The translations under genes were made by a program, and so were the position numbers. A DNA stretch of 64,000 nucleotides, taken from contig CM000433.1 of NCBI GenBank assembly GCA_000165345.1, positions 864,001-928,000 on the forward strand. Direction: 5' to 3'. The notes beneath the pieces are model-generated. The model worked only from the letters and a program-made list of their open reading frames with translations, searched no databases and had not been told where the DNA came from. Positions 11,279 to 56,901 of this stretch are shown here, in pieces. The stretch's first letter is position 1; each line of letters starts with the position of its first letter.

Positions 11279-12712
11279 AACTTAATATATTCTTTCAGAA
11301 AAAAAAAAAGAACAGATTTCTTGGTTTCCTTACTTTATAATCTACAATTCAAACTACAATCTAACAATTTTTCAAATTTATTACCTAATAGTTAAATATT
11401 ATACTATTACTATAAAAAATGATATATATTTAAAATTCTTTAATGGTACCAATCGTTTTCGAGGAGTTGAATTTGAAGAACATGATAAATATTATTTTTT
11501 CAATGTTGATTTTTTTTTTTCTCAAAGAAGAAAAACTATTCTCTTTTAGATGAAGAAAATTCGGACTTAATAAATTTTTTAAAAAAATTTGGTTATTAAT
11601 TTTAATTCTAATATAAATGTATTTTTATGACGTGTAAATTTTTAATGCATGCACTGGCAGATTAAATTTAAAAAAAAAATGCATTTTAGCATGCAAAAAA
11701 AAAAAAATTCACATTTATATTGGGAAATTTTGATCAAAAATTTAAATTAATATTAACTTATTTATTTATTTATTTATTATAAAAAATACTTGGAAATTTT
11801 TTATTTCAACAAGAAAATAAAATATTCAAATTATTACTCAAATATTAATTAATTAAACTACGTGTAATTCCCGCCCAAATTTGTCCCTCACCCCACTTGT
11901 TAAAATTGATTATTATTATAAGTAAATAAACAGCAATATAAATAATTAAAGAGGAGTGATTTGTTAAGACTCATTAAGTTTTTGAGATTATTGACAGGGA
12001 ATATTTGTAATGGTTAATGAGGACCTGTATATTTTGGATGAGAGTAATTAAATTTAAATAATATTAAATATTAAAAGTATAATTCAAATAAATTAAAGTG
12101 ATTTTTTAAAGAAATTAATAAGAAAAAAAAAGTTCAAGAAAATAAATATTAATTTTGATAATAATAAAAAAACATTAATAATACAAGGATTTAATTAATT
12201 CATTATTAAATAATTAAATAAAGTTTATAGAATATATATATAAATATATAAATTGTAAACGTAAAAAAAAAAAAAAAAAAAAAAACAGAAAATTGTTAAA
12301 TGAGCAAATTAAACATAAATTGCACACAAAAATAAATTCAAGAGAAAAAAAGTGTTCAAAATTGAGTGATTAAAAATTTTAAATATAAAGATTAATATCA
12401 TTAATACTCGGATGAAAGTAGGTATATAATACATTAATATGTAATTATAATCCCAACGAGAAATAATAATATATTTAAATTTATACAATTTGCAAAAGTA
12501 TGCAGTGATACAAATTTGTGCATTGGAAATTAGGAATAATAATATATTTTCATTTTTTACGGATGAAAATAAGAGTAATTAAATTAATATTATTTAGCAA
12601 TATATGAATGGTTAATTAGATATATTACAAAAACAAAAAAAAAAAAGAAATATACAGGAATTATAAGTAGCAGCAGAAGTGTGGTATATTAAATAAGTAA
12701 ACCAAAGAAAAA

Positions 12713-14044
12713 ATGCCAAGAGAAGTCAGCATATACAAAAGTCCTATAAAGACTTTGAATCTTGCATTGCTATTTTGCTATGAAGTAGTATGTAAAATAA
12801 TTGTGGAATTGTTTACAAAATGGTATAAACACATTTTGATATTATTTGGAATTACTTTGACAATAATGGGATTAAGTAATTTAAATGAAAAATTAGGAGA
12901 GCTAATTCATAATTACATTTACGTTAATATTTTGAATGGAATTTGGTGGATTGGATTGGGGTTTTTGAGTTCAGTAGGACTTGGTTGCGGCATTCATACT
13001 GGATTATTGTTTTTATTTCCTCATGTTTATTCAATAATTACTACAGCTGAAAGATATAACACATTGAATTTTGACCCAAGGCAAAATATGTGGAGTAATT
13101 TATTGAACCCAGGAGATTTATTTATAGTAAATGATTTAGGTTCAGATGGATCATCAATCAGTCTATTTAACATATTATTAAAGATTCTCCCATATGCATT
13201 TTTATGGGGTTTTGGTACGGCTTTAGGAGAGTTACCCCCATATGCAGCAGCATATGCAGCTTCAAAATCTAGAAAAAATAATAGATTAAGAGAGTTAAAA
13301 AGGAGAAAAGAAAATGAAGAATTTGAAGTACAAAACTCTTCAAGTATTGAAAATATTGGGAATGAAGGTTTTGAAATTAATAAGGAGTTACTTCCTGATG
13401 ATGAAAGTACTGAAGATACAAATAATGACTCAAGTATTAAACATTACTTGATGAGTTTAATAAAGAAGTGTATAGTCACATTGATTAATAAGTTTGGTGG
13501 ATATGGAGTCTTTATTTTAAGTTGTTGGCCAAATTTAATGTTTGATTTATGTGGAATCATATGTGGCCATTATTTAATGAATTTTTGGACTTTCTTTATT
13601 CCACTAGTTCTTGGTAAAGGTATAATAAAGGTTTTCTTTCAGACTTTATTATTAATATTCTTATTTTCAAGTAAATTTGAAAATAAGCATGTTGATATTA
13701 TTCTTTGGTTTATTAAAAAATGGCCAATTTCTAAATTTTTTGATAAAGATGAAATTTACCTTAAAGAAACAATTCATAACGAGTTAATTTATATAAAAAA
13801 GACTTTAAGTAATATGAATGAGCAATCTGGAGATCCTATTTCATCATTGAATTCCAATAATATTAGTAAAATAAATAATAACAATTGGTGGGAAGTCATT
13901 ATAAGTAAAATCCAAATTACTTCCTTATTTTCATGGATTACTATTTTTGTTGTTGTTTTATTTGCAATCTCTATCATTAATGAGGCAGCAAAATATCAAG
14001 ATGAAGCCATCAGAAATAAGGAGAACAAAGTTAAAAAGGACTAA
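12713..14044 (+). CDS. VMP1: Vacuole membrane protein 1 (VMP1/TMEM49, DedA-superfamily ER scramblase-like)
   Basis: Multi-pass membrane protein. [23 protein letters not shown] matches VMP1 [58 protein letters not shown] matches VMP1 [36 protein letters not shown]. Confidence 0.85.
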   Translation: [443 protein letters not shown]

Positions 14045-14695
14045 AATTTATGGATAACTTTTCATTTTGGATTATTTAGTTTCATTTCTTTTACAATTAT
14101 TGATCTCAGATTATGCGATTGTTCATAATTGATTATAACGCACAAAATTAGGCTCAAAAACTGAGGTTATTAAATATATTTTCTATTTTTAGTATCAATT
14201 CAGATTTTAATTTTAATTATTTAAAAGAGATCACTATTTTTTTAGAAGAGTATACTTGGAAATACATTATATTTCACTTATATACTATTTTTCAAAAGGG
14301 GGAATGTAATAAATTTAATAGTTTGCTTCTCCTTGGAATTACTTTATATTTAACTAATCACTACTTTTTTTTTTGATTTTCAAATTATAATGGGATAATA
14401 TTCATCAAATTCTTTTTTCCTTCGAAGTATTTTCATAAGCCATATTTTACATTATACACAGGGTTTGACAAGGCACTTTGTTTCGAGATTAACCTTGTAT
14501 TATAGTTAAAGAAATTATCTAAAAAAAGAAATTTGAATTCATCCTAGTCACTTTTATATATAAATAGAAGAATTATTCAATCTAATTAAAATGTTTAAAT
14601 TATTTTACGTATTATGCAATTTCCGCCCCACATAATTCTTATCAATTTCTATGATTTTTTTTTTTAAAGTTTACCATTATTCTTTAAAAGGAATA

Positions 14696-14720
14696 TGGCG
14701 CCTAAAATAGCAGGCGGGCC
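14696..14720. promoter_or_regulatory. E2F-like pair TGGCGCC N10 GGCGGGCC in the 2.4-kb region upstream of the Aly/REF-like gene
   Basis: aataTGGCGCCtaaaatagcaGGCGGGCCctgc. Confidence 0.45.
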
Positions 14721-16519: not shown

Positions 16520-17332
16520 GTCAATCTCGCACTAATTCAAACTCTACAAGACGTATTGTCAGACTTGGTAACACAAATTTATCAAATTCGAGAAATACTT
16601 TGAACTCCGCAAATGGTAGCTCAAAGTCTAGAGTGATTAGAGGCCAAGGCGGTAGGAGAGTCAATACCAGCTTTGATAATCTCAATAGAAGGAAATTAGC
16701 ATCTTCCAGAAACTCCACTAATAGAGGCTCTTCACTTTCTAACAATGCAAGAAACAGAAAGGGAAGCATTGGGCGCTTTAATTCTTCTGGAAATTCAGGT
16801 GCCATTAGAAGAGGAGGTAGTGGTAGTGGAGGTAGGGGAAGAGGATTTAGAGGTAGGAACAGTGGTTCTAGAACATCATCTAGAGGAAGAGGAGGCGCAT
16901 CTGGAGGATTTAGAGGAACTAGACGCCCCCAGAAGAATAAAAACAGTACAAGCACAGCGTCATTGGTAAGTTATTTTTTTCTTTGAAGAAGTTCTATGGA
17001 ATTCCACATCCATTTTTTTTTTAATGGACTGGTTATAGCGCATGGCGCCAAATGTGGGATTACGGAATACAATTTCTCAACTATATTAACTTTTCACAAT
17101 TTCTTCCCCCTTCAAAAAAAAAAAAACTATATATATTATTTTTGATTTTTTTTCTAATAAACAGGATGCAGCATTAGACTCGTATATGGGAGCAGATGTT
17201 TGCAAGGCACGATTAGATTCACAATTAGATTCATACTTTTCTGGACAAAGTACTGGAAATGATAGCATGGTAACCGGCGACTCTTCGATGAATGTGGAGA
17301 GTAATCAGGAGCCAGTTTTGATCTCACTATAG
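16520..17332 (+). CDS. Aly/REF-like RGG-box mRNA-export adaptor, 3-prime part only: join(16520..16965,17165..17332). The 5-prime exon or exons are not resolved.
   Basis: ORF 16507..16986 is RGG/RS-rich (GGSGSGGRGRGFRGRNSGSRTSSRGRGGASGGFRGTRRP). It opens at a TTG directly after an acceptor, (T)17 gaacattatag ending 16519. A GTAAGT donor sits at 16966 and acceptor aataaacag ends 17164. That gives an in-frame last exon DAALDSYMGADVCKARLDSQLDSYFSGQSTGNDSMVTGDSSMNVESNQEPVLISL ending in TAG. The C-terminal tail LDxxLDSY (present twice) resembles the UAP56-binding C-box of ALYREF (LDAQLDAYNARMDTS). An RRM should lie in undetected upstream exons within 14045..16506. Confidence 0.5.
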
Positions 17333-20685: not shown

Positions 20686-23574
20686 ATGTCAATAAAGCTA
20701 CGCGAACTAATTAGACAAGTTAGAAACTGCAAAACGGCAGCAGAAGAAAGGTCTATAATTTCAAAAGAATGTGCCCATATCAGAGCACTTTTTAAAGAAG
20801 ATGAAAATCAATATAGACAAAGAAATATTGCAAAATTATTATTTATTCATATGCTTGGATATCCAAGTCAATTTGGACAAGTTGAATGCTTAAAACTAAT
20901 TGCTAGCAATAAATTTTGTGAAAAAAGAATTGGATATCTTGCGATTTGTCAATTATTAGATGAAGATTCTGAAATTTTATTGCTTGCAACCAATAGTATC
21001 AAGAATGATCTGAATCACTCAAACCAATATATTAATGGACTTGCACTCTCTGCTATAGCTAACACAGCTCCTAAAGAGATGTGTAGAGCAGTTTTTAGAG
21101 AAGTTAGTGAACTTTTACTAGTTGGGAACCCATTCATCAAGAAAAGAGCATTACTTGCATCAGTACATATTATTCGAGTTCTTGAAGATGCAGAAATTGA
21201 GTCATTTATTAACTGTATTCCTTCTTTACTTGAAGATAAGCATCATGGAGTTCTTTTAGGTACTTGTCATATGATTAATTCAATAATACAATATCATCCT
21301 GAACATATTGAAGCTTTAGGACCTTTTGTACCTTTATTAGTAAAAATATTAAACACAATAAGTATGGCAGGATATCTTAATTCTATGGAATATGATAATG
21401 GAGGAGTCACAGACCAATTTCTACAAGTACATATACTAATTACAATTGGTGATCTCAGAACTGTTATTGCAGATGATATTAAAGAGAATATTTGTGCCGT
21501 ATTAGCTCAATTATTGACTAATACTGATCATTCCAAAAATGGCGGGAATTCTATTTTATATGAATCTGTTAGAACCATTATTAAATTATTACCATATATT
21601 AATGAGGATGGATTATATATGTTAGCTGTTAATACGGTAACAAAATTCTTACAAAATACTGATTTAAATATCCGTTTTGTTGCCCTTGGTTTATTAGAAA
21701 ATATGAAAGAATTTCCAAATAACTCCAGTACTTGTTCAATAGTCTCAAATGTTAATGAGAGCTTAACTGGAAATAATGACAACAGTAATAATGAAACTGC
21801 GCATGCAGGTTTGGCGCCACATCATGCATTAATTTTAGACTGTTTGAAAGATTCTGACTCGTCAATTAAACTTAGGGCATTAAAAGTTTTGTTTTCTGTA
21901 ATAAATGAAAACAATATAAAGACTTTTATTAAGGACTTATTGAATGCATTATTGATTTCAACAGAAAATGAAGAAATTGATTTTTCTATAGAATTAGCAA
22001 CAGGAATGTGTATTGCGGTAAGGAAATGTAAGCATTTAACCCCACAGTGGTATATTGATACTTATATTAAACTATTTTGCTTGGCTGGAAATATTATTAA
22101 AGAAGAAGAAAGGGATTACTTTATTTCTTACCTTTCTTCTTTAAGTGATTCAAGCATTCATTCATATACTGTCAAAAAGTTATATTTATCATTATTATCA
22201 AGAAATGACCAAATTTTACTAATTCAAGTTACTTTATGGGCAATTGGCGAATATTCTCAGCATCTATTTACTAATAATAATGGAATTGGCTCTTTTGAAG
22301 AACAAAAATCTTTAGATACCTCAGAAATTGATATCTCTGAAGAATCTGTTATGAGTTTAATTGAAAATATTTTAGTTTGTAATTCAAGGGAAATGTCAAA
22401 TAGTAACTACTCATTATCAATATCAGGAATCAATAATTTATGCATTGATTATTCTCATCCAATAAAAGGAGTTGGAACTTATGGCTCTATTAGCTCTATA
22501 GAAACTACAATCAACTTTGCATTAGTAGCTTTGATCAAAGCTAGTATTCGACTCAAGACCCAAAAAAATAAGATACTACAGCTTATTCAGAGTCAAGCAT
22601 CATCTCCATCAGTTGAAATACAACAAAGAGCTTTAGAATATATACAAATTTTGAATTCTAACTGGGATTCTAACCGAAGTCAAATTCTTAACCCTATTCC
22701 AGTATTTGATCTTTCAAATCTTTACTCTAATGAAACTAGAACAAACAGCTATATTAATCTCAATGCCTATAACTCTCCAAAAAATACTAAGAATGAAAAT
22801 ATAAATAACAAATCTAATGATAATACCCTTGTAACAGATCTTTTAGACCTTGATTCTAATATTAATGAAGTAACAGGTAATACAAGTACTAATAATATTA
22901 ACAATTCTAAAGTTGAATCGACTAATGGAAACATCCTGGACTTATTTGACACTATAGCCAGTAATAATACAAAGACTAATCACATCGATTTTAATGCAAA
23001 TGATTCTATGGCTCCAGTTTCTAAAATTGATCCTGTTTTAACTATCACTCATAATAATTCTGGTAACAGTAATAACAACTTACTTAATTTTAATGATAAT
23101 AAACCTACAATAACTACCAAGAGTTCTCCATTTGAGGATCTTATTGACTTTAATAAGCTTGATTTATCTTCTTCACACTCTTCTTCAATTCAAAATAATA
23201 ATTTAAATTCTATTGAAACTATTAAAATTTATGAAAACAAGGATATTAGAATCACATTTGATATATCCAAAAACAAATTCAACCAAAGAGAAACCAACTT
23301 CACTGCAAAGTATTTCAATATTTCTGATGTAGATATATCAAACTTTAAACTAGAAATTGCTGTTCCAAAATATCTTAATATTCAGCTTGAAACTGCCTCT
23401 AGCAACTACCTTCCTTCTAATAACTTCAATCATCCAGCAAAACAAGAAATTAAAGTTACCAAAAATGGAGATGAAAATAATCAAATACTTATGAAGCTTA
23501 GAATTAACTATCTTATCAACAATAACCAAGTTACCGAATATTCGAATGTAAATAATATTCCCAGCAAATATTAA
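20686..23574 (+). CDS. AP1G: AP-1 complex gamma-adaptin large subunit (trunk plus gamma-ear appendage)
   Basis: 962-aa single exon. The N-terminus [85 protein letters not shown] aligns nearly residue by residue with human AP1G1 ([83 protein letters not shown]). Further conserved blocks are [36 protein letters not shown] and the C-terminal ear [24 protein letters not shown]. Confidence 0.9.
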   Translation: [962 protein letters not shown]

Positions 23575-23736
23575 TTATAATTTTAATAATATACAAATAT
23601 TTATTATTACGTGTTTGCATGCATTTTTCTGCATGTATTTGTTTTTTTTTGACACGTCATTTTTTTTCTCAATGTGGATAATAAAAAGTAATTTAGATAT
23701 ATATATATATGTATATATATATTTATATATATTTAC

Positions 23737-26700
23737 TTAAAGTGCACTACCTCTAATTTTCTTAATACTTTCTAATATATTTAATGTCATTTGTTTATTA
23801 ATATATCTGTTATTTTTAATACAAGAATATAAAAGGAAGCCGCAATTAAGACACCCATTTTTACAGTTACAGCTATTTATATTATCCCTCATATTAAAAA
23901 TAATATCTTCAATAATTCGAACTTCCTTTCCGTTTGAAGTACATTTCAATTTCATTAGTTCATTAAAATATCCATTACCTCCCTTTTTATTTTCATATAG
24001 CAGAAGAGTGATAGAATTTGTTTGTTTATCTTTTTGATTATAAATTTTAACTAAAAGATAATTTCAGATAAATGTAATTTATTATTTTTTTTCTCAAGAA
24101 AAATTATACTTAATAAACTTACTGTCAGGGCATTCACAAGAAATATCATTAATATTACAAGATATAAACTTTGGAAGCGAATTAATAACATTGTGAATAA
24201 TCCCATGTATAGCTATATTAATTATTTCAACTTCAAATTTATCACTTAATTCTAACTTTATCTGCATTCCCATTGTATTAAATGAGTAAACTAAAGGATT
24301 TTGAATATATTTCTCTTCCATAAAAATCCATTCATTATTAATTATCTCAAATATTGAATAACTATATATATCAAAAGTAACTCTTGCTCCTGTTATATAT
24401 ATATTCATACTAATAATATCGCTTTCCAAACTTTCACTCAATGTATATCTTTCGCCATTTCCTTGCATTACTACTGAAACTTCCCCTGAAGAAACAGTCT
24501 TTTGTTTAAGTCTATGATCACCCTTCTTAATTTCTTGTACTATTCCTATAATTCATTGTAATTTTTTAACAATTTAATCATTAAATCATTATTTAATTTA
24601 TAAATATTATTATTATTAACCTACCTCTTCTGGATGTTAAGTCCACTGATAAAGTCTTATATAACACCCCATTTATTGAATATATTGATTCTGGATATAC
24701 TAAACGAACTGAATTATAAATTGGTAATGTGTCAATAATCACCCTACTATCCTTAACATCGTAAAGTGATACAGTTATATCGCTATCTCTAACATCTATT
24801 TGTTTGTAAATATCTTTTGGATCATTCAAAATCAACTGATCATTATTTTCAAAATATAATGAAAGCAATGATGAAATGCATGCAGGTTCGATTCCCGCTT
24901 CAGATTGATTCTTTATCCTATTCCAATTATAATATAAATCGCATGCAACAAAATCTTGAACTTTTGAATTATCGTAAGTAACAATTAGATTTCTGTAGTA
25001 CAAAAATTTGATAATATCAACCAATATTTCAGAGTTTAAATCCAAAATCTTTGAATCTCTTTTAATATTAATAAATTTATAAGTTTCAACTGTTAAACAT
25101 ATAAGGTGAAGAATTAATAAATAAGGATTCTTTAAATTAATAACACATGAATCAAATTGTTTAGATAATAATTCATCGCCATGATTACTTATATAATTAT
25201 CAATTTCATTATTTTCATTTAATAAAAGCACTTTAATACTTTTTGTTTTATGATCTCTTCCACATCTTCCAAATTGTTGAGTCAATCTATTAATAGACCC
25301 AGGGTATCCAAAAACTATTACACTATCAAAACATTTTACATCAATTCCTAGTTCCAATGCAATAGTACTAATAACAATTTTTACTTTACCGTTAAATATT
25401 AGTGATTCTAATTTTCTTCTTTCAGTTTGAGAAATCCCTCCCCTATAAATTTGAATATCAGAATCAAAGTTGAATTGATGATCATTATGAAGATTTATCT
25501 TCTTTAAAGCCATTAAAAGGTCTCTCTTAATATTTTCAACCAATTTTCTTGAAGGACAAAATAAAATTAATTTACGATTTAAATAGTAGAATTCAATTAA
25601 CATATTAATACATTCTTTATAACTTTTATTTTTTTTTATTTGACTATAATTTTTTGTATTATCTTTAATAATATACTTATTACAATCCCAAATTAATATT
25701 GATGATTCTCCCTTTGAACTTGAATCATTATCAATAAGTGCAATATCGTTAAAATCTTTAAATTCAGAACCAATCAAGTTTTTAAAATGCTCAATAGGGT
25801 TATTTATTGTTGCAGTACATACAATATACTGAGTATATGTTTCAGAATCTATATAATTATTTTTTTGTTTGTAATATAGAATGCCTCTGTGAAGTCTTTT
25901 TAATATATAGCTTGTATTAATTCCAAAATGGCCTGTATAAATATGAGCTTCATCGATAACAAGCAATTTTAGACGATTATAAATCATACAAGATAAAAGT
26001 TCAATATTCCAATGAATAAAATCAATATTAGTTAGAATAATATTACTTTTTAATAATATTTCTCTTCTTTGATTCATATTTGTATCTCCATCAAGTTTAT
26101 TAACCTTTGGCAAAATAGTTGGAGGTTCGGGATGAAAAAAACTTAGAATTTGTGTAATCTTCATAAACTGATCTTCAGATAATGCCTTTGTTGGAAATAT
26201 TAATAAAGCCAAATTTTTTGGGTTTTGAATGGCAAATTGAATGCATGGAAGTAAATAACACATAGACTTTCCACTTGATGTACTGGTTGTAATGATTACA
26301 TTCTTTTTATCTCGCAAAATGGCTTTAATTGCATCACTCTGATGATTATAAAATCTAAATTTGTTAGATGAACTTTTATTAATATAAATGCTCAGCATAT
26401 CAATTATTTTCGGATCAAGAATTGAATATACCTGATCATTTTCATGGCAGTAGTTAGTTTCTCGTCCCTTCTCAAATTTCTGGCTTACTATTCCACCTTT
26501 TAAAATTGTACTTTTTGAAATAGTTTCAATGACTTTATCAGAGTCTACCGTTTGATTTTTTCCATTTGGGATTGACATTAATTGATTTATTCTTCTTATT
26601 CTAATTTCCTCCAGACTATTCTCTTTTACCTCAATATCAACTTTATCCGTGAATTTGTCTTCAATTTGCTCATTTTTCTCACTAATATTCATTAATAATT

Positions 26701-27308
26701 GTTTCTCAAAGAATTCTAATAAAGAGTCCATTGATTTTTTGTTGAGTTTATTGGATTGAATTAAATTATTACAAGATTTTATATCTAAGTCTTTTGGTTT
26801 GTTTTTATTACATATAGTATCAGTTCCAATATTGAAATTTATTATATAGTCCCTCGCATTAGCCAGTATTTCATTTAATTCAAAGTTAGTATTTGAATGA
26901 GATACTTGTGTTTCTGAAATCCTTGTTATTGTAATTTTATCTTTTAGTACAGCAATTACATCTTTAAAATCACCAATATTTTTAATTCCATGTACTCCAG
27001 GACATCTTCCAAGCCTACAAATGCATTCATCAGAAACCCCACACAATATTGATGATATTCTTGTAATGCATTGGTTTGAAACAAGTTTATTGTAAGTTGC
27101 TAAATATGTTCGAAGATAGAAAAAAAAAATAATCAGATTTTTGTTTAATTAATTTTCAAATATTCTAAATTCTCTGTTATTCAGTCAACTTACCTAGAAT
27201 CTTCTTTAAAAACTCAATTAATCGAATATTTTTAATAATTTGAGCCTGGTATGTATTCAATTTGTTTCTTTGATTTATTAAGTCATCCGTTCTTTCTCTT
27301 TTGAGCAT
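23737..27308 (-). CDS. DEXH-box ATP-dependent helicase of the Hrq1/YprA(MrfA) family with a C-terminal DUF1998-type Cys-rich zinc module. Four exons: complement(join(23737..24050,24123..24545,24625..27099,27194..27308)).
   Basis: The core ORF 24593..27046 has Walker A TSTSSGKSMCYLLP, motif II LLVIDEAHIY (DEAH) and helicase-C motif VI TQQFGRCGRD. Its M at 27046 is a TTG. An upstream exon MLKRERTDDLINQRNKLNTYQAQIIKNIRLIEFLKKIL- joins through a GTAAGT donor at 27193 and acceptor tttag ending 27100, in phase 1, giving -ATYNKLVSNQCITRISSILCGVSDECICRLGRCPGVHG. Downstream, a GTAGGT donor at 24624 and acceptor tatag ending 24546 join to ORF 24094..24468. A GTAAGT donor at 24122 and acceptor ttttag ending 24051 join to ORF 23737..23955. 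All phases check, for 1108 codons in total. The C-terminal Cys cluster is CNINDISCECPD ... CNCKNGCLNCGF. Confidence 0.75.
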
Positions 27309-28800: not shown

Positions 28801-28804
28801 TTAA

Positions 28805-30133: not shown

Positions 30134-30366
30134 TTGCATGCAATAATAAATCAATCAAATATAAGCAAAAAATAAAAATAAAGAATGAAACAAAATGAAC
30201 TAAAATATAATTAATATTAAACCAAATCATTTATATAAAGTACTAGGAAAAAAGCCTTAATACTTTATTATTGTTAATATTCATTATTATTTTTTTAAAC
30301 TAATTATCATGGTAATGATTACTTTTTGTCCACATTAATTTAGAATGCATGCTATTGCATGCATGG
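30134..30366. promoter_or_regulatory. Cluster of three GCATGC-core sites, two of them the full TGCATGCA, plus a TGGCGCC at 30105, in the divergent DCP1/RING-H2 promoter
   Basis: gTTGCATGCAAt at 30134..30143; aATGCATGCTATTGCATGCATGg at 30345..30366; TGGCGCC at 30105..30111. Confidence 0.5.
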
Positions 30367-33635: not shown

Positions 33636-34003
33636 AGATACTTGGAATTATTTTTCAAAAAACGCGCCAGAAAGTGCATGCACTTGCAAACATGCATTTT
33701 AATGTGGACAGAGGCAAGTATTAGTGCATGTGGATATATCCCGGTATATGTAATAAATCATGTATATATAGTCACAAATAGGGAGAAAATGCGGTTCGAA
33801 AGAAATTATTAAAAATTGCAAAATAAATAAATTCCCCCACAACAAATGAATGTAAGGCATGTAATGCAAATAAACAATAGAAGATGAATTTTATTTGTTA
33901 TTATTTTTTTTACATTAATAATATAACAATAGAAGCATTTATTTCAAAAAAAAAATTAATAATAAATAAAAATCAGGAAATGAATTTAACATAAAATTTC
34001 AAT

Positions 34004-35560: not shown

Positions 35561-35963
35561 CTATTACCATCAGATTCAATTCAATTATTAATTTCAAAAA
35601 AAAAACTAACAAACATAAATAATTTTACAACTATTTAATTAAATTAATTCCACTATTATAATTTATTTTATACAATAATATATATTTTACTTTTTCGACA
35701 TTGTTAGAAAACTTGCATGCAATTTTGCAATATAATTCCTTTGCATAATAGATCGTTCGGCGGTAACATGCAGAAGAAAGTATAGAACTGGCGCCCAAAG
35801 CAAGAATGCACACGTAATTTAGTTAATTTATGTTTATGTCTATAAAAAAAAGCATGGAAAGTATAAAAAACTCACAATAAGGGTCAAGGAAATTTTTTTT
35901 ATACAATTTAAGTAAATATAAAAAAGATCATTATTTGAGTGTATCTTGAAAATCGAAGAAGAG

Positions 35964-41803: not shown

Positions 41804-42563
41804 GATTAACTCTTTTAATTGACTACATCGTATTATCTTCTAGTTATCTTCTTTATGCAAACAAGTATAGCTTATTTTAACTGTAATTGTCTTTTACATT
41901 ATTAATTGTTGTGTGTAATTTTTTAAATCCATAAGAAATCAATCTGGCGCCAATGTTTCATTGATTCATTCCAATTGAAATGAAGTACGGGGTTAAAAAA
42001 AAAAAGCTTATTCTAATTTAAAAAACTCTTTAAATTAAAATGAAAGAAATCTTTGGATTATTAATAGTAAGTTAAAAAAATAGAGTGCATATTTTTTGGC
42101 TACTCCATTTCCCTCTCTTTATTTCTTTACTAAGTAATAAATATCATTTTTAAGAGGGGAAATTGCATGCAAAGATAATTAATTAACTCTTAATGAAAAT
42201 TCTCATTTTGATCAAATATACGAAGATAATAGCATGTAAGCTGAGTACAGTATTTGCATTAGTTAAACAAATGCCACCTGAGACGCCATGGGACACTGTT
42301 TTTTCTATTATAAGAAGCCAATTTTTTGCTGTAAGTTGAGACCATTGTAAATACTGATTAAGAAACCCAGATTAATTACATGTAAAAATTTAACACAAAT
42401 CCATTAAACTAATTGACTCAAAGTGGGGGTTCACAATTTTTCAGTTCTTAATTTTTATATTTTTTGTTCAAATGCAAATATGTAAGTTAATTGATCTTTA
42501 TTATATATCATTTTAATACTTTAATATATTCTTACTTTTTATTTATAATTATAAAGTTAAGAA

Positions 42564-43679
42564 TCAATAATCCATAAAGTCTAAATATGATTCAGTAAAA
42601 TTTTCTTTGTTAGATTTAACAATTATTTCATTAGAAATAGTAAAGTTTAATCCTGTAACAATATTTACTTCATTATCATAAAAATATTTTAATTCTTTAA
42701 CTTGACCCAAAGGAACTCCTACTGTGAAGTTCGACTCCAAAAAATCCAAAGTAACTAAAGCTGGGGAATACATTAGATATGCAGGAATATGTTTGATATT
42801 TGGGTAAACAACTATAGGAGTACTGCTAAAATGCTTTACTAGAAATTCCAATGCGGGAGGAAAAGGAACTACATCGTCTTTCATTCCCCAGAAGAAGATT
42901 ATTTTAAAAGTATTTTCGTATTTGGATAATCTTTCAAAATCCAAATGTCTGTCAAATAAGTTGCCATCTCCGCCTGATTTAATATATGTTGAGAACATTT
43001 GGTGAAAAACGTTCGTAGTGGCTTTTTTTTCTTCTTTAGTTTGTTTTCCCAATTTAACATATCCCAATTTGGAGGCGCAATAAAATCCACATCTAAACAC
43101 TCTTTTAGAATTGTGAATGTTCTTAATGGCACTAACAAGAGAAGAATTTGATAATCTGTATAATTTTGGAAAATCATATTTTGTCATTATTCCAGGTGGG
43201 CACATTGGTATTAAGTTACTAATATGATCCGGGTGTTCTAATGCATAATTGATAATGATTAATCCTCCCATTGAAACACCTAATAATGAAATCTTCTCTA
43301 CAGCTTTATTATCACTATCAACCCACCCAACATGTTTAAGCAATTCATTTAATTGATCAACAAATCTTTTTTGTGAGAAAAAACCAGGAAGTTTCCATTC
43401 AGTGTTAGCATGTCCTAATAAATCATAGGTTAAAACTTGATAACCAGTATGAGAAAATATACACCTCCAATTATCAAATTGGGTTGAAGCTGCTAACAAA
43501 CCATGTACCATTACAATTCTTTTTTTTTGTTCTTCTTTAGTTATAGTATAAAAAGTTCTTCCGGATTTCAAATCTGCAAAATCAGATTTAATTACACAGG
43601 AGGAGCCTTGATAGAAGCAAAGTGTAATAAAACAGATTAATGTGATTACGTATTTCAAGTTCATTTTTGCCAAATTCAA
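42564..43679 (-). CDS. Secreted alpha/beta-hydrolase fold esterase or lipase
   Basis: Signal peptide MNLAKMNLKYVITLICFITLCFYQGSS. The HG oxyanion motif reads VMVHGLLAAS. The nucleophile elbow G-x-S-x-G reads LLGVSMGGLII. Length is 371 aa. Confidence 0.7.
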   Translation of the reverse strand: MNLAKMNLKYVITLICFITLCFYQGSSCVIKSDFADLKSGRTFYTITKEEQKKRIVMVHGLLAASTQFDNWRCIFSHTGYQVLTYDLLGHANTEWKLPGFFSQKRFVDQLNELLKHVGWVDSDNKAVEKISLLGVSMGGLIIINYALEHPDHISNLIPMCPPGIMTKYDFPKLYRLSNSSLVSAIKNIHNSKRVFRCGFYCASKLGYVKLGKQTKEEKKATTNVFHQMFSTYIKSGGDGNLFDRHLDFERLSKYENTFKIIFFWGMKDDVVPFPPALEFLVKHFSSTPIVVYPNIKHIPAYLMYSPALVTLDFLESNFTVGVPLGQVKELKYFYDNEVNIVTGLNFTISNEIIVKSNKENFTESYLDFMDY

Positions 43680-47303: not shown

Positions 47304-47618
47304 AATTCAGAATCATTTATACTAATTTTATTTATAATTATACTTCTTTTTTCATATACTAATATTATTTATCAAATAAGTCAAGAATTACTATATTTTA
47401 TTAATCAAGGGACAGATATAAAAAAAATAAAAACTGAGCATAAAGCTGTTCGTCATTTTTTTTTATTAATAATAATATTAAATTATAATTTACCAATATA
47501 TACTTTTTTCCAAATTCAATTATTTTTTTTTTTTCTTTATTATTTATTGGTATTAACACTTTCTCATTTACTTAATATTATTATTTCCACATAAAAAATT
47601 TCCCAACTAGTAATTTTA

Positions 47619-47670
47619 ATACCGGCATTTAAAAAATGACGTGTGTAATATTTAACAAATTTTGCATGCA
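47619..47670. promoter_or_regulatory. Composite element ATACCGGCATTT-N4-AATGACGTGTGTAA plus TTGCATGCA, in a convergent 3-prime/3-prime intergenic region
   Basis: taATACCGGCATTTaaaaAATGACGTGTGTAAtatttaacaaatTTTGCATGCAac. Its partner at 27403..27429 has the same order and spacing. Confidence 0.5.
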
Positions 47671-47693
47671 ACTTTTAAAGAAAATCAGAATTT

Positions 47694-52534: not shown

Positions 52535-53061
52535 AATAGTAATTATTATAATTTTTATAATTTCTTTTATTTTCCCTCCCCTCATGCATTTATTTGCATG
52601 GCTTACATGCAAATAATTCTTTCCACAACAAGCTCCCGCCATACGTGTAAAATACCGGTATCTAAAATTATTGTAAATAATACACACGTAATACGAAAAA
52701 AATAATTTTAGGGAATTAAAAAATTTGATTCCCTATATGAATTTCTTTTTTTTTAAATAAATTATTCAAGACGAATTTCAAAGAATATTCTTGAGGAATT
52801 TTATACAAATTATAAAGAAACCAATGAAAATAATTAAATTCATATAAAGTTTAATTTAAGGAAAAAAAAATATACGATTTTTGGAATATTAATAGACTTG
52901 GATTTGATTCATGTTGTCTTATAACAGAGTTAAATGTGGTGATTATACATTAAGCTTTTATGATTCTAAGTAAACCTTTTTTTATAGTTAGGTAAGAAAA
53001 AATTTAGCCTTCAATTCAAGATTGTGGGGAAGTTTAAAATAAGAACCTCCATACCAAGAAG

Positions 53062-55095
53062 ATGAGTGCTAAGACTAATAATGTAAATAACAATATTAAT
53101 GACAAAGACGAAATAAGTAATAGTTATGTTGATTTAAAAAATGATGAACAAGGCTCTGATATTCAAGATGAGCCTTTTAATATAAGCAATTTAATATCAG
53201 TGTTGCGTTTTAATTTAAATAATGAAAATGCAAGTAAAGAGAAAATATTGAGCCAAATATACAATTTAATGAATAAAAGAATGCCAATAAAGTATTCTAC
53301 TGTACAAAGAAAGACTAAAGCCAAGGGGTTTGTTACAAGTGAAGATAGATTACGAGGTAAACTTTATAATGATCATTTGAGAAATAAGTCTAAAGAAATC
53401 AACAAAAATCACCATAAAGAAATTCAAGAAAAATCTGCAGACCCTGATTCAGCTAATGAAAGTATTTCAAATAATAATAAAAGTCCTACCAATACTATAA
53501 GAATTACATCCCCCAAAATATCTATAATTAATAAAAATGATATGAAAAATAAGCAAATTAACATATTATTTGATTACATTCTATCAACACTTATCATATC
53601 TGATCAGATCAAAGTTAAATTGGATATATTAACATTACTGGAAGAACAGTATGAGACAATATTGGGAAACCCTGAACAAATTCTTTCTGAAAAAAAATGT
53701 TGGGAAAGATATAATACAACTTTTAATCTATTTGAACATATTATCGCAGCAAATTATAAAGCAATTGCAAATGAGTCAATTAATTTATTTGAAGCTAGTA
53801 CAGTCCTTTCTGGTTCAAATTCAATTTCCATTGATAATATTTACCAAGAATTAATCAACAATCCTAAATATTCAATTCCTATAGTATTACAATCTCAGAC
53901 TTTGGTTACTTTTACAAGTATTGCTCTCTGCTTGAATTTATTGGAAACTGCACCTTTCTGGTTTTCTAAGCTACTTTCTATATTGTTTATTATTTGCAAA
54001 GAAGAATCTATTAAAACACAAAAATCACATGATAGAAATCCTATATTATTCCAAAATTACTATTCAATCTTAAGAAGATATGCGATCGAGTGTCTTATTG
54101 AGATTAATAAGACTTATCCGTTGATTTTTTGTCCTCTGTTAGAAATCAATTTTATACCAAATCAGAATATTGAAAAAGTCAATATTGAAAATCAGGGTTT
54201 TGGCTTTATACAAAGAAATATTCATCCAAGTATTTGGCTAGATAATCTTGAAAAAGGATTCATTACAGATTGCAAGAACTTCAATAAGAATAATATTTAT
54301 AATGACCAATTCATTGAACTAATGATCAATATTATCATTACTTTAATCGTTAAAAATTATACAAAACAAACAGATATTACCAAAGTTATCAAGGAAAAGG
54401 AAAGATTTCTTACATATTTGGTGACTTATATTATGGAGAATTTGAAATCTATTTCATGCTGGAATTTACACAGTCGAATTTTATTCTTGAAAAAAATTAC
54501 AAAAACATTGTCAATACCTTCCAATATTTTGGAATCATCTCTTATACCTTTTTCATATTCATCCAGAATTCATATTTTATTTGAAATTTGTTTCTTTATA
54601 TTGGACGGTATTTCAAAAGAATCTTTCTCCAATGTATATCATCAGATTATTGGAATATTAAATAATTTTCATTTTCCTTTAACTTTTAGAATATATTCAT
54701 CCAAATGGATCCAATTTCTCATTTCGAACTATTCTGAAAAGTTAATTGAACAAACTAATAATCATCAAAATTATACTTTGGCTAAGTTTATTCACCATCT
54801 GTTAATACCAAAATGGTACGATTTTTGTAAAATCAAATACTTTAAATCCCTTATCATTCTTCAGCTTAAGTTCCAAAACGTTATTCAAAATACTAATGAC
54901 GAAGATTTTTTTGAGATTCTTTATCAATCTTTAAATACTTTGCAAGAATATATTATTATTAAAGCTCCTGTTGGTGCACATTCAATTTATTTAAAGCTAT
55001 TATTCAAAATTTCTATATTATTTGGAGTTAACCAACATATTTCTGATTTAATTGTTAAATATACATGCCATCCAAATTTCCCAAATATCATCTGA
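53062..55095 (+). CDS. Hypothetical large helical (HEAT/ARM-like) protein
   Basis: 677-aa ORF from ATG to TGA. The N-terminus is low-complexity and acidic. It is followed by long amphipathic helical segments. I recognise no family. Confidence 0.5.
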   Translation: MSAKTNNVNNNINDKDEISNSYVDLKNDEQGSDIQDEPFNISNLISVLRFNLNNENASKEKILSQIYNLMNKRMPIKYSTVQRKTKAKGFVTSEDRLRGKLYNDHLRNKSKEINKNHHKEIQEKSADPDSANESISNNNKSPTNTIRITSPKISIINKNDMKNKQINILFDYILSTLIISDQIKVKLDILTLLEEQYETILGNPEQILSEKKCWERYNTTFNLFEHIIAANYKAIANESINLFEASTVLSGSNSISIDNIYQELINNPKYSIPIVLQSQTLVTFTSIALCLNLLETAPFWFSKLLSILFIICKEESIKTQKSHDRNPILFQNYYSILRRYAIECLIEINKTYPLIFCPLLEINFIPNQNIEKVNIENQGFGFIQRNIHPSIWLDNLEKGFITDCKNFNKNNIYNDQFIELMINIIITLIVKNYTKQTDITKVIKEKERFLTYLVTYIMENLKSISCWNLHSRILFLKKITKTLSIPSNILESSLIPFSYSSRIHILFEICFFILDGISKESFSNVYHQIIGILNNFHFPLTFRIYSSKWIQFLISNYSEKLIEQTNNHQNYTLAKFIHHLLIPKWYDFCKIKYFKSLIILQLKFQNVIQNTNDEDFFEILYQSLNTLQEYIIIKAPVGAHSIYLKLLFKISILFGVNQHISDLIVKYTCHPNFPNII

Positions 55096-55377
55096 TCACA
55101 TAAATAATTCTATACAATTATTACATTTAATATCAAGTTTATTCATCAAACCAGAGACAATTTGTAAGTTTATATTAATTATTTATTTTAATATTATGGA
55201 CTAATTAACTCATGAATTTTCAATATTTTATTTTCAAAAAAAATTAATATAGTGAACATATTCTACTTTTATTTGAAACTTTCCTGAGTCATATCAAAAC
55301 TTTGAATAATCCAAGAGATATTGATCCATTTCTTATGGTATTGATTTATTTATCGAAGAGACTTTAGATTCACAGAA

Positions 55378-56811
55378 ATGGGAAATCATGCAGTAATTTC
55401 AGATTTGATCAATTCATTATTTTATATTCCAAAAGTATTTCTTGAAAAGATTCAAAAACCTGTACTTAAATGGATTTATATTAATAAAGTTTTTACAGTA
55501 AGTTTATTAACTATTGTTATTTTTATTTTAACAAAATTTTAGGTTTGTTTGTCAATAATAACAAATAATATGAATAATTATAATGTAATTTACTTGCTAA
55601 ATAATTTATTTGGTTATATTAAAAGTCAATTAAAAGTTTATGATACTCAATTATTGGACTCAATAAATGAAATAGAATGTTCAATGAATTGTATGAGCTT
55701 GAGAACTATTCATGGTTTATTTGAGATAGAAGAATATAAGCAATGTAAAGAGAATTTAAACAATTTAGAACATATTTCAAAACAAAGAGAAAGTAAATTG
55801 GAAGAGAGGCTTCAAACAGAAAATGTGAATAAAGAACTTTATAAAATTCGATTAGATGCATATAAACAGTTTAGAAGACAAATATATGGTTTGAGAGATG
55901 ATTCATTTTCTATTTTCTCAAAGAATAAGCAACATAATACTTTAATATTACCATTCCAAATTAAATATCTCGAGATTGATGAAGAGCAAAGTTGTTTATA
56001 TGGAATAAAATTAAATTTTAAATCAAGTAATGATTCTTTAGGAATTGATCCAGTTTATATTCCATTCTTAAAACCTCAAAATATTCAAGAATTAGAGAAA
56101 GAAGATATTGAAGAAATGGTGATTAGCAAATACCTAGAAGAAGAAAACTCTAGAGTGATAAATTTGAATAATAATATTGTTTTTCTTTTGTTAATTGTAA
56201 AGGTTAAATTTCCAATTCCAGGAAAATTACAAATTGATATGGAATTCAATGATAAATTCGGTCAAACAATTTATGATAAACTTGACAGTATTCAAATCTC
56301 CTTTCAAGATTACTTTCTTCCTTCTCCAAATGAAGATTGGATTTTAAAATGTTATAAAGCTCTCAGTTTGAGACCATTAGAGTTAGAATCTGAAACATCA
56401 AAACATAAAAGTCAATTAGAAACTCCAGAAATGGTGAATACATGTAAACTTTTGGATATATCATCGAATTTAGTATTAAGAAATATCAATAAGCATTTAC
56501 GTACTTTTGAAATAAATGGAAATGAATTACTTTCTGTGATTAATGAAAAAATTAATATTAAGGAAGATTTTGATTTTAAACATGATTTGTTAATTCATCA
56601 AATAGAACTTAAGAAACAAAACTTTATTGAGGATTTACAAGTTCAAATTAGCTATAGATGGTTTTGTATTCACTTATTACCAAAATATTATTTAATAATT
56701 CAGTTTTCTATCACTAATAAGTCATCAATAGTCAGAATTTACACGGATTTCCCTGAGATTCTTTCTCATTGTGATGATTTTTTTGATTCTTGGTTATCAT
56801 TATCACCATAA
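55378..56811 (+). CDS. Hypothetical protein with two exons, join(55378..55497,55543..56811). It may instead be the 3-prime part of the upstream gene.
   Basis: ORF 55549..56811 opens at a TTG directly after acceptor ttttag ending 55542. An upstream exon from the ATG at 55378 (MGNHAVISDLINSLFYIPKVFLEKIQKPVLKWIYINKVFT) ends at a GTAAGT donor at 55498, in phase 0. It continues as VCLSIITNN.... No recognisable domain. Confidence 0.45.
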
Positions 56812-56869
56812 TTGTTTTAATTAATGTAATTTAAACAAAAAAACATATAAATTTAATAAATGGAGAATT

Positions 56870-56901
56870 CTGCATGCAATAAAATGCATGCAGTGCATGT
56901 A
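56870..56901. promoter_or_regulatory. Two TGCATGCA sites plus GTGCATGT in the 230-bp convergent region between 55378..56811 and CWC25
   Basis: tcTGCATGCAataaaATGCATGCAGTGCATGTaactg. Confidence 0.45.

What the first reader, a model, noticed from the sequence alone, without database searches (positions are those of the whole stretch)
11646..56901. The palindrome TGCATGCA is enriched about 30-fold in non-coding DNA, including convergent 3-prime regions
Exact TGCATGCA occurs at 11646, 23616, 30135, 30356, 33676, 35714, 42164, 47663, 56871 and 56887. Variants lie at 11689, 30346, 52585 and 63437, and one further copy at 59009 lies inside the 58530 CDS. Assuming about 24% G+C, about 0.3 copies are expected. 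The octamer is the best-known apicomplexan upstream motif and is bound by ApiAP2 factors in Plasmodium; a GCATGC-type upstream motif has also been described for Cryptosporidium. Several copies are paired (30346/30356 and 56871/56887). Three copies sit in short convergent 3-prime/3-prime intergenic regions (23575..23736, 47304..47693 and 56812..57041) where no promoter is expected.
Basis: partly seen in the sequence, partly recalled or inferred. Interest (0 to 1): 0.5.

Follow-up and report, generated by a model that had tools for sequence, protein, structure and literature searches.

The report
Known ApiAP2 promoter motif in Cryptosporidium
The window is Cryptosporidium parvum chromosome 5, and the enriched palindrome TGCATGCA is the parasite's long-described "AP2_1" transcription-factor binding site, so the finding is real but already known; the smaller point of interest is that copies also sit, conserved, between the tail ends of convergent genes.

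Summary
TGCATGCA occurs 12 times in the window against 0.40 expected. Nine copies lie in the 17.7 kb of intergenic DNA, about 90-fold over its own composition. One lies in an intron and two in coding sequence.

The window is Cryptosporidium parvum chromosome 5, at least 99.99% identical to the IOWA-ATCC assembly. In this species the octamer is the published AP2_1 motif. It was reported as over-represented in non-coding DNA in 2003, found upstream of about 1,000 genes, and shown to bind several C. parvum ApiAP2 domains on protein-binding arrays.

The convergent-region copies are real: four copies in three tail-to-tail spacers, confirmed by two independent annotations. Two of the three loci are conserved in C. 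meleagridis and chipmunk genotype I. The exact octamer at 47663 also survives in C. ubiquitum; at 56871-56901 only 1-mismatch TGCATGTA forms do. E2F promoter motifs are absent from all 10 convergent spacers, while AP2_1-type sites are as frequent there as elsewhere.

The most likely role is an ApiAP2-bound promoter module for antisense or non-coding transcripts, which has a published precedent. No such transcript is catalogued at these loci. A partner motif, TGACGTGT, co-occurs with the octamer.

The parts
11646..11653 (.). TGCATGCA in the divergent spacer between the 347-aa gene (-) and the 443-aa gene (+). A variant AGCATGCA lies at 11688 and a partner TGACGTGT at 11628-11635.
   Evidence: The octamer and the AGCATGCA variant are both kept, with the same 42-bp spacing, in chipmunk genotype I.
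23616..23623 (.). TGCATGCA in the 162-bp convergent spacer between AP-1 gamma adaptin (+) and the DEAD helicase (-), 42 bp past the adaptin stop codon. TGCATGTA lies at 23630, ACGTGT at 23609, and TGACGTGT on the minus strand at 23652-23659.
   Evidence: The octamer is degenerate in chipmunk (TGCATATT) and absent in C. felis and C. xiaoi. The neighbouring TGACACGTCA is conserved in chipmunk.
24877..24884 (.). TGCATGCA inside the DEAD-box helicase CDS (- strand gene).
   Evidence: It is kept in chipmunk within conserved coding sequence.
30135..30142 (.). TGCATGCA in the divergent spacer between DCP1 (-) and the 1052-aa RING protein gene (+).
   Evidence: It is not kept as an exact 8-mer in chipmunk.
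30346..30363 (.). Pair TGCATGCT (30346) and TGCATGCA (30356), 121 bp upstream of the ATG of the 1052-aa gene. This is a classical promoter position.
   Evidence: An exact TGCATGCA lies 118-245 bp upstream of the orthologous ATG in chipmunk, C. felis (where it is doubled) and C. xiaoi.
33675..33682 (.). TGCATGCA in a tandem spacer, 329 bp upstream of the 518-aa gene ATG and 40 bp past the previous gene's stop codon. An E2F-like CGCGCC lies directly upstream.
35714..35721 (.). TTGCATGCAA in a tandem spacer, 250 bp upstream of the EF-hand gene ATG.
42164..42171 (.). TTGCATGCAA in intron 1 of a conserved spliced 67-aa gene (42040-42570, +), 124 bp after its ATG.
   Evidence: It is kept in C. meleagridis, which has a second copy in the same gene range, and lost in C. 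ubiquitum and C. felis.
47620..47670 (.). Conserved module in the 390-bp convergent spacer between RING-700 (+) and the 578-aa gene (-). It consists of TACCGG (47620), TGACGTGT (47637-47644) and TTGCATGCAA (47663-47670), and lies 31 bp from the stop codon of the 578-aa gene.
   Evidence: The exact octamer lies 28-31 bp from the orthologous stop codon in C. meleagridis, chipmunk and C. ubiquitum. TACCGG and AATGACGTGT are conserved in the same four species.
56871..56901 (.). Array of three sites (TGCATGCA 56871, TGCATGCA 56885, TGCATGTA 56894) in the 230-bp convergent spacer between the 1204-aa gene (+) and the CWC25-like gene (-). An AATAAA lies between sites 1 and 2.
   Evidence: The array is kept with site turnover. 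In C. meleagridis site 1 is lost and site 3 is perfected. Chipmunk keeps sites 1 and 2. C. ubiquitum has TGCATGTA twice.
58997..59026 (.). Intragenic cluster inside the 537-aa (inositol-pentakisphosphate 2-kinase-like) CDS: TGCATGCA (58997), CACACA (59010) and GCGCGCC (59020).
   Evidence: GCATGC and its flanking T are kept at nucleotide 452-455 of the CDS in five species. The 3' A is kept in four of the five; chipmunk has TGCATGCG. The flanking codons change the amino acid (S/N before; N/G/T/I after).
63389..63445 (.). Variant module in the divergent spacer upstream of the 832-aa gene: TGACGTGT on the minus strand (63389-63396), a G-box, TACCGG (63428) and TGCATGCT (63438).

Best explanation
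What it is. TGCATGCA here is the AP2_1 cis-regulatory element of Cryptosporidium parvum. It is a palindromic double-stranded DNA site, with extended consensus TTGCATGCAA, recognised by several ApiAP2 transcription factors.

Copies upstream of genes. In divergent and tandem spacers it acts as an orientation-independent promoter element for the neighbouring mRNA genes.

Copies in convergent spacers. I infer the same kind of ApiAP2-bound promoter module there, often joined to a second motif, T(G/T)ACGTGT, and sometimes to TACCGG. No mRNA promoter is expected in those spacers, so the module most likely drives antisense or non-coding transcripts that start near the stop codon of one of the two genes.

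Shown versus inferred. Shown here: the enrichment, the placement, the evolutionary conservation and the motif co-occurrence. Shown in the literature: ApiAP2 binding in vitro and the AP2_1 motif upstream of antisense lncRNAs. Inferred: binding at these particular sites in vivo and the existence of transcripts from the three convergent spacers.
For: Enrichment. The window holds 12 copies against 0.40 expected. Intergenic DNA holds 9 against about 0.1, and TGCATGCA is the top-ranked specific 8-mer there.

Organism. The window is C. parvum chromosome 5.

Literature. AP2_1 is a published over-represented upstream motif (PMC3734150). It is bound by at least four C. parvum AP2 domains on protein-binding arrays (PMC4117751; PMC12246861).

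Promoter geometry. The copy 121 bp upstream of the 1052-aa gene is conserved upstream of the ortholog in chipmunk, C. felis and C. xiaoi. In Toxoplasma the same motif peaks about 82 nt upstream of transcription start sites, in the nucleosome-depleted region (PMC7854901).

Constraint. Five of 7 intergenic copies are kept as exact 8-mers in chipmunk genotype I, against 10-20% of composition-matched control 8-mers (P 0.0002-0.005). Three of 4 convergent copies are kept (P about 0.03). The 47663 site holds its 28-31 bp distance from the stop codon in four species. The 56871-56901 array shows binding-site turnover.

Promoter-like context in convergent spacers. Spacer 47304-47693 carries TACCGG, TGACGTGT and TGCATGCA, the same three-motif combination seen at 52604-52684 upstream of the 1204-aa gene and at 63389-63445 upstream of the 832-aa gene. 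ACGTGT co-occurs with AP2_1-bearing spacers in 6 of 9 cases against 3 of 22 (P = 0.007).

Precedent. C. parvum antisense lncRNAs are biased to the 3' ends of genes, and ApiAP2_1 is one of their top two upstream motifs (PMC7840661).

DNA-level recognition. The extended palindrome TTGCATGCAA argues for recognition of double-stranded DNA rather than of one RNA strand.
Against: No lncRNA is listed for the genes flanking spacers 47304-47693 and 56812-57041 in the 396-lncRNA catalogue. None appears between CPATCC_002386 and CPATCC_002404. Only Cp_lnc_211, antisense to DCP1, lies nearby. That supplementary file was truncated when stored, and the later 766-lncRNA annotation could not be consulted.

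Sporozoite ATAC-seq peaks show E2F motifs but no AP2 motifs (bioRxiv 10.1101/2025.01.17.633476). Any activity would therefore have to be in other life stages.

The 23616 copy is not conserved even in chipmunk.

None of the three convergent loci keeps the motif in C. felis, and the adaptin/helicase spacer, the only one of the three sampled in C. xiaoi, lacks it there too.

Baseline spacer identity among the four close species is high, at 61-89% counted over the longer spacer (79-92% over aligned positions), so conservation is only moderately significant.

No binding or transcription data were available for these sites.
Confidence: 0.72

Rival explanations
1. The 3'-end copies are boundary or roadblock elements. 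In this reading an abundant ApiAP2 bound in the short convergent spacer keeps a nucleosome-free gap. It stops read-through polymerases arriving from the two converging genes, in the way Reb1, Abf1 and Rap1 general regulatory factors do in yeast, rather than starting a transcript.
For: Per base pair, the exact motif is about 5 times denser in convergent spacers (4 copies in 2,320 bp) than in other spacers (5 copies in about 15.4 kb). Binomial P is 0.02 by copies and 0.05 by loci. E2F, the dominant promoter motif, is absent from all 10 convergent spacers but present in 19 of 21 others (P = 1.5e-6), so these are not ordinary promoters. The sites lie 31-60 bp past a stop codon, and one array brackets an A(A/G)TAAA poly(A) signal that is conserved in three species. 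No lncRNA is catalogued at these loci. The yeast analogy rests on general knowledge.
Against: The sample is tiny, at three loci in one 64-kb window, and the density excess is only marginally significant. Seven of 10 convergent spacers, including very short ones, have no such site, so it is not a general requirement for termination. The sites are absent from the even shorter orthologous spacers of C. felis and, for the one spacer sampled there, of C. xiaoi. No roadblock function is known for any ApiAP2.
Confidence: 0.12
2. The 3'-end copies act in RNA. In this reading UGCAUGCA in the 3' UTR of one or both convergent mRNAs is bound by an RNA-binding protein, as UGCAUG is bound by RBFOX proteins in animals, and controls stability, translation or 3'-end processing.
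For: All the convergent copies lie 31-171 bp past a stop codon. They sit before or at the first A(A/G)TAAA signal, so they are probably transcribed into 3' UTRs. The 47663 site keeps a fixed distance of 28-31 nt from the stop codon in four species.
Against: The consensus is an extended perfect palindrome (TTGCATGCAA). That is expected for a dimeric or double-stranded DNA binder and is unnecessary for an RNA site. The same octamer at promoters is a demonstrated ApiAP2 DNA site (PMC4117751). The partner TGACGTGT occurs on either strand relative to the nearby genes. RNAalifold finds no supported structure in the spacer on either strand. No UGCAUG-binding protein is known in Cryptosporidium; that statement rests on my own knowledge and was not tested.
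Confidence: 0.08
3. The excess is non-functional. In this reading it comes from compositional or mutational effects, for example (TGCA)n slippage, or from chance survival of sites in spacers that have simply not diverged much.
For: TGCATGCA is two units of TGCA, and some copies extend the repeat: TGCATGCATGG at 30356 and (TGCA)3 in C. felis. Spacers among the four close species are 61-89% identical counted over the longer spacer (79-92% over aligned positions), so some 8-mers survive by descent alone. The 23616 copy is lineage-specific.
Against: The excess is 30-fold over dinucleotide shuffles and about 90-fold within intergenic DNA. No tandem expansion beyond about 2.5 units occurs in the window. 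The motif is conserved above composition-matched 8-mers. It is independently present upstream of the same ortholog in species whose spacers no longer align. Specific ApiAP2 binding is published (PMC4117751).
Confidence: 0.03

Closest known systems
AP2_1 motif of Cryptosporidium parvum (BGCATGCAH / TGCATGCA), bound by ApiAP2 domains cgd2_3490, cgd1_3520, cgd8_3230 and cgd5_4250
   Same: The species, the octamer and the excess in non-coding DNA are the same. So is the position 120-330 bp upstream of start codons for the copies at 30356, 33675 and 35714 (PMC3734150, PMC4117751, PMC12246861).
   Different: The published genome-wide analysis defined 'upstream regions' only (PMC4117751 methods) and so never scored tail-to-tail spacers. 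In this window 3 of 10 such spacers carry the motif, and two of those loci are conserved.
Promoter motifs of C. parvum antisense lncRNAs (Li et al. 2021, PMC7840661)
   Same: ApiAP2_1 is one of the two top motifs within 100 bp upstream of lncRNAs. Those lncRNAs are mostly antisense and biased to the 3' ends of genes. This matches sites lying 31-60 bp from stop codons.
   Different: Most of those lncRNAs (309 of 363) lie head-to-head with an upstream mRNA and are thought to share a bidirectional promoter, and E2F is their commonest motif. The sites here lie in convergent spacers with no mRNA promoter and no E2F motif, and no lncRNA is catalogued at these loci.
TGCATGCA / gCATGCa elements of Plasmodium (PF14_0633 / AP2-Sp site) and Toxoplasma (TRP-2; about 82 nt upstream of 44% of transcription start sites)
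   Same: The palindromic core is the same, the ApiAP2 domain family is orthologous, and the promoter location in nucleosome-depleted regions is the same (PMC4117751, PMC7854901).
   Different: The regulons and stages differ between genera (PMC4117751). In C. parvum sporozoites, open chromatin is dominated by E2F motifs, with no AP2 motif detected (bioRxiv 10.1101/2025.01.17.633476).
Yeast general regulatory factor sites (Reb1, Abf1, Rap1) at the 5' and 3' ends of genes
   Same: Both are short, specific sites found at promoters and also between convergent genes in a compact genome. This comparison rests on general knowledge and is an analogy only.
   Different: The protein families are unrelated. 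No evidence of roadblock or nucleosome-excluding activity exists for any ApiAP2 in Cryptosporidium.

Membership tests
AP2_1 (ApiAP2-binding) cis-element of Cryptosporidium | The sequence matches [T/C]GCATGC[A/G] / BGCATGCAH. | tested here: met
   There are 12 exact TGCATGCA copies plus 1-mismatch variants. The extended consensus is TTGCATGCAA.
AP2_1 (ApiAP2-binding) cis-element of Cryptosporidium | The motif is over-represented in non-coding DNA relative to composition. | tested here: met
   Intergenic DNA holds 9 copies against about 0.1 expected, and the motif is the top specific 8-mer there. Genic DNA holds 3 copies against about 0.3-0.4 expected. None of 100 dinucleotide shuffles reaches 12 copies.
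AP2_1 (ApiAP2-binding) cis-element of Cryptosporidium | The host genome is Cryptosporidium and encodes TGCAT-binding ApiAP2 proteins. | tested here: met
   The organism was identified here as C. parvum chromosome 5. The presence and specificity of the ApiAP2 proteins are taken from PMC4117751 and PMC12246861, and were not recomputed.
AP2_1 (ApiAP2-binding) cis-element of Cryptosporidium | The motif is located upstream of protein-coding genes, in a promoter position. | tested here: inconclusive
   This is met for the copies at 11646, 30135, 30356, 33675 and 35714, which lie in divergent or tandem spacers. It is not met for 23616, 47663, 56871 and 56885 (convergent spacers), 42164 (intron), or 24877 and 58997 (CDS).
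AP2_1 (ApiAP2-binding) cis-element of Cryptosporidium | The individual sites are occupied by an ApiAP2 in vivo. | not testable with these tools
   No ChIP or CUT&RUN data were accessible. Sporozoite ATAC-seq reports no AP2 motif in open chromatin (bioRxiv 10.1101/2025.01.17.633476).
AP2_1 (ApiAP2-binding) cis-element of Cryptosporidium | The sites are under evolutionary constraint. | tested here: met
   In chipmunk, 5 of 7 intergenic copies are kept against a 10-20% background. The promoter copy at 30356 is kept as far as C. felis and C. xiaoi. The site at 47663 is kept as far as C. ubiquitum.
Antisense or lncRNA promoter (as in Li et al. 2021) | A non-coding transcript starts within about 100 bp of the motif. 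| tested here: inconclusive
   The 2021 catalogue lists no lncRNA between CPATCC_002386 and CPATCC_002404, but the file was truncated when stored.
Antisense or lncRNA promoter (as in Li et al. 2021) | The motif sits at the 3' end of the sense gene. | tested here: met
   The sites lie 31, 42 and 60-74 bp beyond stop codons.
Structured small ncRNA gene in the convergent spacer | There is a match to a known RNA family, or a conserved secondary structure with covariation. | tested here: not met
   Rfam finds only SNORD96, at 39210-39292. ARAGORN finds no tRNA. RNAalifold gives -12 and -10 kcal/mol over 411 columns, with a negligible covariation term.
E2F/DP-type promoter | A [C/G]GCGC[G/C] or GGCGGG motif is present in the spacer. 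| tested here: not met
   None of the 10 convergent spacers has an E2F-type motif, against 19 of 21 divergent or tandem spacers.

The most novel reading that the evidence does not exclude
In the C. parvum clade, E2F-free modules made of AP2_1 with T(G/T)ACGTGT, sometimes with TACCGG, may form a distinct and conserved class of regulatory element at the tail ends of convergent genes. They would be either dedicated promoters of stage-specific antisense RNAs or ApiAP2-bound boundary elements. On this reading AP2_1, unlike E2F, is not fundamentally a 5'-end motif. The partner motif TGACGTGT is not among the 25 published C. parvum upstream motifs.
Probability: 0.3. Interest if true: 0.5.

Novelty: already known. 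Interest (0 to 1): 0.25.

Why it matters
The main finding only rediscovers the AP2_1 element of Cryptosporidium, so it adds little by itself.

The part worth keeping is the contrast between two motifs. In this window the E2F motif is strictly confined to spacers that contain a gene start. AP2_1 is just as common in tail-to-tail spacers, where two of three loci are conserved across species and are paired with an undescribed motif.

If this holds genome-wide, it would give a sequence handle on how the abundant antisense transcription of this very compact parasite genome is started or contained. It would also caution against treating every TGCATGCA as an mRNA promoter element when ApiAP2 regulons are predicted.

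Tried and rejected
1. A structured or known ncRNA in the convergent spacers. Rfam at gathering and at E <= 1 found only an intronic SNORD96. ARAGORN found no tRNA. RNAalifold on both strands of spacer 47304-47693 gave weak energies and almost no covariation.

2. A catalogued lncRNA at the convergent loci. Gene-ID searches in the Li 2021 supplement found none between CPATCC_002386 and CPATCC_002404. The sRNA paper and the CpBGF paper have no supplements held.

3. The original 2003 chromosome-6 paper could not be retrieved. Its result is cited second-hand through PMC3734150 and PMC12246861.

4. A literature search for the partner motif ACGTGT in Cryptosporidium returned only PCR-primer papers among the 10 of 96 hits that were listed.

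5. The idea that spacer 47304-47693 is exceptionally conserved was rejected. Its identity to the orthologous spacers is similar to that of the neighbouring spacers.

6. The idea that the 42164 copy is a fourth convergent copy was rejected. It lies in intron 1 of a real, conserved 67-aa gene that has its own upstream E2F site.

8. A genome-wide test by spacer class could not be run. Only about 70 kb of C. parvum sequence was reachable, and the contig look-ups were exhausted.

Full report
**1. Observation**

A search for TGCATGCA finds 12 exact copies. They lie at 11646, 23616, 24877, 30135, 30356, 33675, 35714, 42164, 47663, 56871, 56885 and 58997. One hundred dinucleotide-preserving shuffles give a mean of 0.40 and a maximum of 3.

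With one mismatch allowed there are 34 sites against 15.6 expected. These include the reported variants at 11688, 30346 and 63438. The variant reported at 52585 is only a CATGCA half-site, close to TACATGCA at 52604. Window G+C is 25.7%.

**2. Organism and gene map**

The 962-aa ORF at 20686-23574 is AP-1 gamma adaptin. It is identical to a C. parvum protein and 98% identical to a C. hominis one. Contigs carrying the window's exact proteins include C. parvum IOWA-ATCC CP044418.1, to which the window is at least 99.99% identical in reverse orientation at roughly 837.8-901.8 kb. Gene identifiers place the window on chromosome 5.

Gene calls from two NCBI C. parvum assemblies, together with the window's ORFs, give 33 genes, 31 spacers and 17,726 bp of intergenic DNA.

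**3. Enrichment by compartment**

- Intergenic DNA (21.8% G+C) holds 9 copies against 0.06-0.12 expected under Markov orders 0-2, about 90-fold.
- Genic DNA holds 3 copies against about 0.3-0.4 expected: two in CDS and one in an intron.
- TGCATGCA and GCATGCAA are the most enriched 8-mers in intergenic DNA apart from low-complexity A/T runs.
- Next come the E2F-type words (TGGCGCCA, CCGCCAAA), then ACACGT(A/C)A and CCGGTA.

**4. What it is**

In C. parvum this octamer is the published AP2_1 motif.

- PMC3734150 lists BGCATGCAH as motif 1, over-represented upstream of 55 co-expression clusters comprising 1,034 genes. It notes that the motif's excess in non-coding DNA had already been seen in the 2003 chromosome-6 study.
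- PMC4117751 shows by protein-binding microarray that four AP2 domains from four proteins bind TGCAT: cgd2_3490, cgd1_3520, cgd8_3230 and cgd5_4250.
- A 2025 review tabulates 18 ApiAP2 proteins, seven of them listed as AP2_1-like binders (PMC12246861).
- In Toxoplasma the same motif lies in 44% of promoter windows and peaks about 82 nt upstream of transcription start sites, in the nucleosome-free region (PMC7854901).

**5. Placement of the copies**

- Divergent spacers: 11646, 30135 and 30356.
- Tandem spacers, 250-329 bp upstream of the next ATG: 33675 and 35714.
- Convergent spacers: 23616 (adaptin+/helicase-), 47663 (RING-700+/578-aa-) and 56871 with 56885 (1204-aa+/CWC25-like-).
- Intron 1 of a conserved spliced 67-aa gene: 42164.
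- Coding sequence: 24877 and 58997.

The convergent arrangement is the same in two C. parvum annotations and in the orthologous loci of C. meleagridis, chipmunk genotype I, C. ubiquitum, C. felis and C. xiaoi. Under the intergenic background, 0.013 copies are expected in the 2,320 bp of convergent spacer. Four are observed, at three loci.

**6. Comparison across species**

I fetched the orthologous regions from five other Cryptosporidium species.

- Promoter copy at 30356: conserved 118-245 bp upstream of the orthologous ATG in chipmunk, C. felis and C. xiaoi, whose spacers no longer align.
- Convergent copy at 47663: present as an exact octamer 28-31 bp from the stop codon of the 578-aa ortholog in C. 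meleagridis, chipmunk and C. ubiquitum.
- Array at 56871-56901: retained with turnover. C. meleagridis has lost site 1 and perfected site 3. Chipmunk keeps sites 1 and 2. C. ubiquitum has two TGCATGTA sites.
- Convergent copy at 23616: degenerate in chipmunk and absent in C. felis and C. xiaoi.

Spacers among the four close species are 61-89% identical when counted over the longer spacer (79-92% over aligned positions). I therefore compared the motif with control 8-mers from the same spacers. In chipmunk, 10-20% of 4-G+C control 8-mers survive intact, against 5 of 7 TGCATGCA copies (P 0.0002-0.005). Three of 4 convergent copies survive (P about 0.03). At C. ubiquitum distance only 1 of 4 copies survives, against 17% for controls. 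The constraint is therefore real but moderate, and clade-limited for the 3'-end copies.

**7. Context of the convergent copies**

I mapped six motif classes onto all 31 spacers.

- E2F-type motifs occur in 0 of 10 convergent spacers and in 19 of 21 others (Fisher P = 1.5e-6).
- Seven convergent spacers carry none of the six motif classes.
- AP2_1-type sites occur in 3 of 10 convergent spacers and 6 of 21 others (P = 1).
- Per base pair the exact octamer is about 5 times denser in convergent spacers. This is only marginally significant (P 0.02 by copies, 0.05 by loci).

A second motif travels with the octamer. TGACGTGT occurs 4 times against 0.26 expected, and each copy lies 18-49 bp from a TGCATGCA-type site. 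ACGTGT occurs in 6 of 9 AP2_1-bearing spacers against 3 of 22 others (P = 0.007), always within 100 bp. It is conserved at both convergent loci where it occurs.

Spacer 47304-47693 carries TACCGG, TGACGTGT and TTGCATGCAA within 50 bp. The same combination lies upstream of the 1204-aa and 832-aa genes. That spacer therefore looks like a promoter without a gene.

**8. Mechanism**

Best-supported reading. These are ApiAP2-bound, orientation-independent promoter modules. In convergent spacers they most likely start antisense or non-coding transcripts. PMC7840661 reports that C. parvum lncRNAs are mostly antisense and biased to the 3' ends of genes, and that E2F and ApiAP2_1 are their top two upstream motifs.

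Evidence against.
- That catalogue lists no lncRNA for the genes flanking two of the three spacers.
- Sporozoite ATAC-seq peaks lack AP2 motifs (bioRxiv 10.1101/2025.01.17.633476).

Rival readings.
- A 3'-end boundary or roadblock role is compatible with the absence of E2F, the closeness to stop codons and poly(A) signals, and the absence of a catalogued transcript. It rests on three loci and an analogy.
- A 3'-UTR RNA element is disfavoured by the extended palindrome, and by the partner motif occurring on either strand.
- Non-functional excess is refuted by the shuffles and by conservation.

No known or structured RNA was found in the spacers.

**9. Verdict**

- The convergent-spacer copies are genuine, and two of three loci are conserved. 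They are probably functional, but their role is not established.
- The E2F versus AP2_1 contrast and the TGACGTGT partner motif are small leads. They need a genome-wide test that could not be run here.

Noticed in passing
window 11628-11635 (+), 23652-23659 (-), 47637-47644 (+), 63389-63396 (-): TGACGTGT occurs 4 times against 0.26 expected. Every copy lies 18-49 bp from a TGCATGCA-type site, usually as A-run + ATGACGTGT. The broader core ACGTGT occurs 13 times against 3.2 expected, and TTACGTGT forms are also enriched in spacers. The motif is not among the 25 published C. parvum upstream motifs. It resembles a bZIP (ACGT-core) site.
   Followed up: partly
window spacers, e.g. 8094, 20387, 27404, 27459, 33741, 37982, 47620, 52653, 63428: TACCGG (often as the palindrome TACCGGTA) is enriched in intergenic DNA: CCGGTA occurs 10 times against 0.9 expected. 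It usually lies next to E2F or ACGTGT motifs. It is conserved in four species in spacer 47304-47693.
   Followed up: partly
window 58997-59026, inside the CDS 58542-60155: Three promoter-type motifs lie within 30 bp inside the inositol-pentakisphosphate 2-kinase-like CDS: TGCATGCA, CACACA and GCGCGCC. GCATGC and its flanking T are kept in five species, and the 3' A in four of them (chipmunk has TGCATGCG), while the flanking codons change amino acid. This hints at an internal or antisense promoter under DNA-level selection.
   Followed up: partly
all 31 spacers of the window: E2F-type motifs are present in 19 of 21 divergent or tandem spacers and in none of the 10 convergent spacers. This makes E2F a clean marker of gene 5' ends in this window.
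   Followed up: yes
window 39210-39292 (+): A C/D-box snoRNA lies in the intron of the spliced 589-aa gene (38422-40524). It matches Rfam SNORD96 at 68.6 bits, E = 1e-11.
   Followed up: no
window 42040-42570 (+): A conserved four-exon gene for a 67-aa protein lies between RanBP1 and the secreted alpha/beta hydrolase. It overlaps the hydrolase 3' end by 7 bp. A conserved TGGCGCCA lies about 95 bp upstream of its ATG, and a TGCATGCA lies in its first intron.
   Followed up: partly
window 53062-56811 (+) and 23737-27308 (-): Gene models disagree between C. parvum annotations. The first region is one 1204-aa gene in one annotation and two genes (700 and 413 aa) in another. The helicase is 1013 aa in one and 1108 aa in the other. 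The longer helicase model sets the 162-bp size of the adaptin/helicase spacer.
   Followed up: no
window 23695-23730: An (AT)n microsatellite lies in the adaptin/helicase convergent spacer. It is also present in chipmunk genotype I.
   Followed up: no
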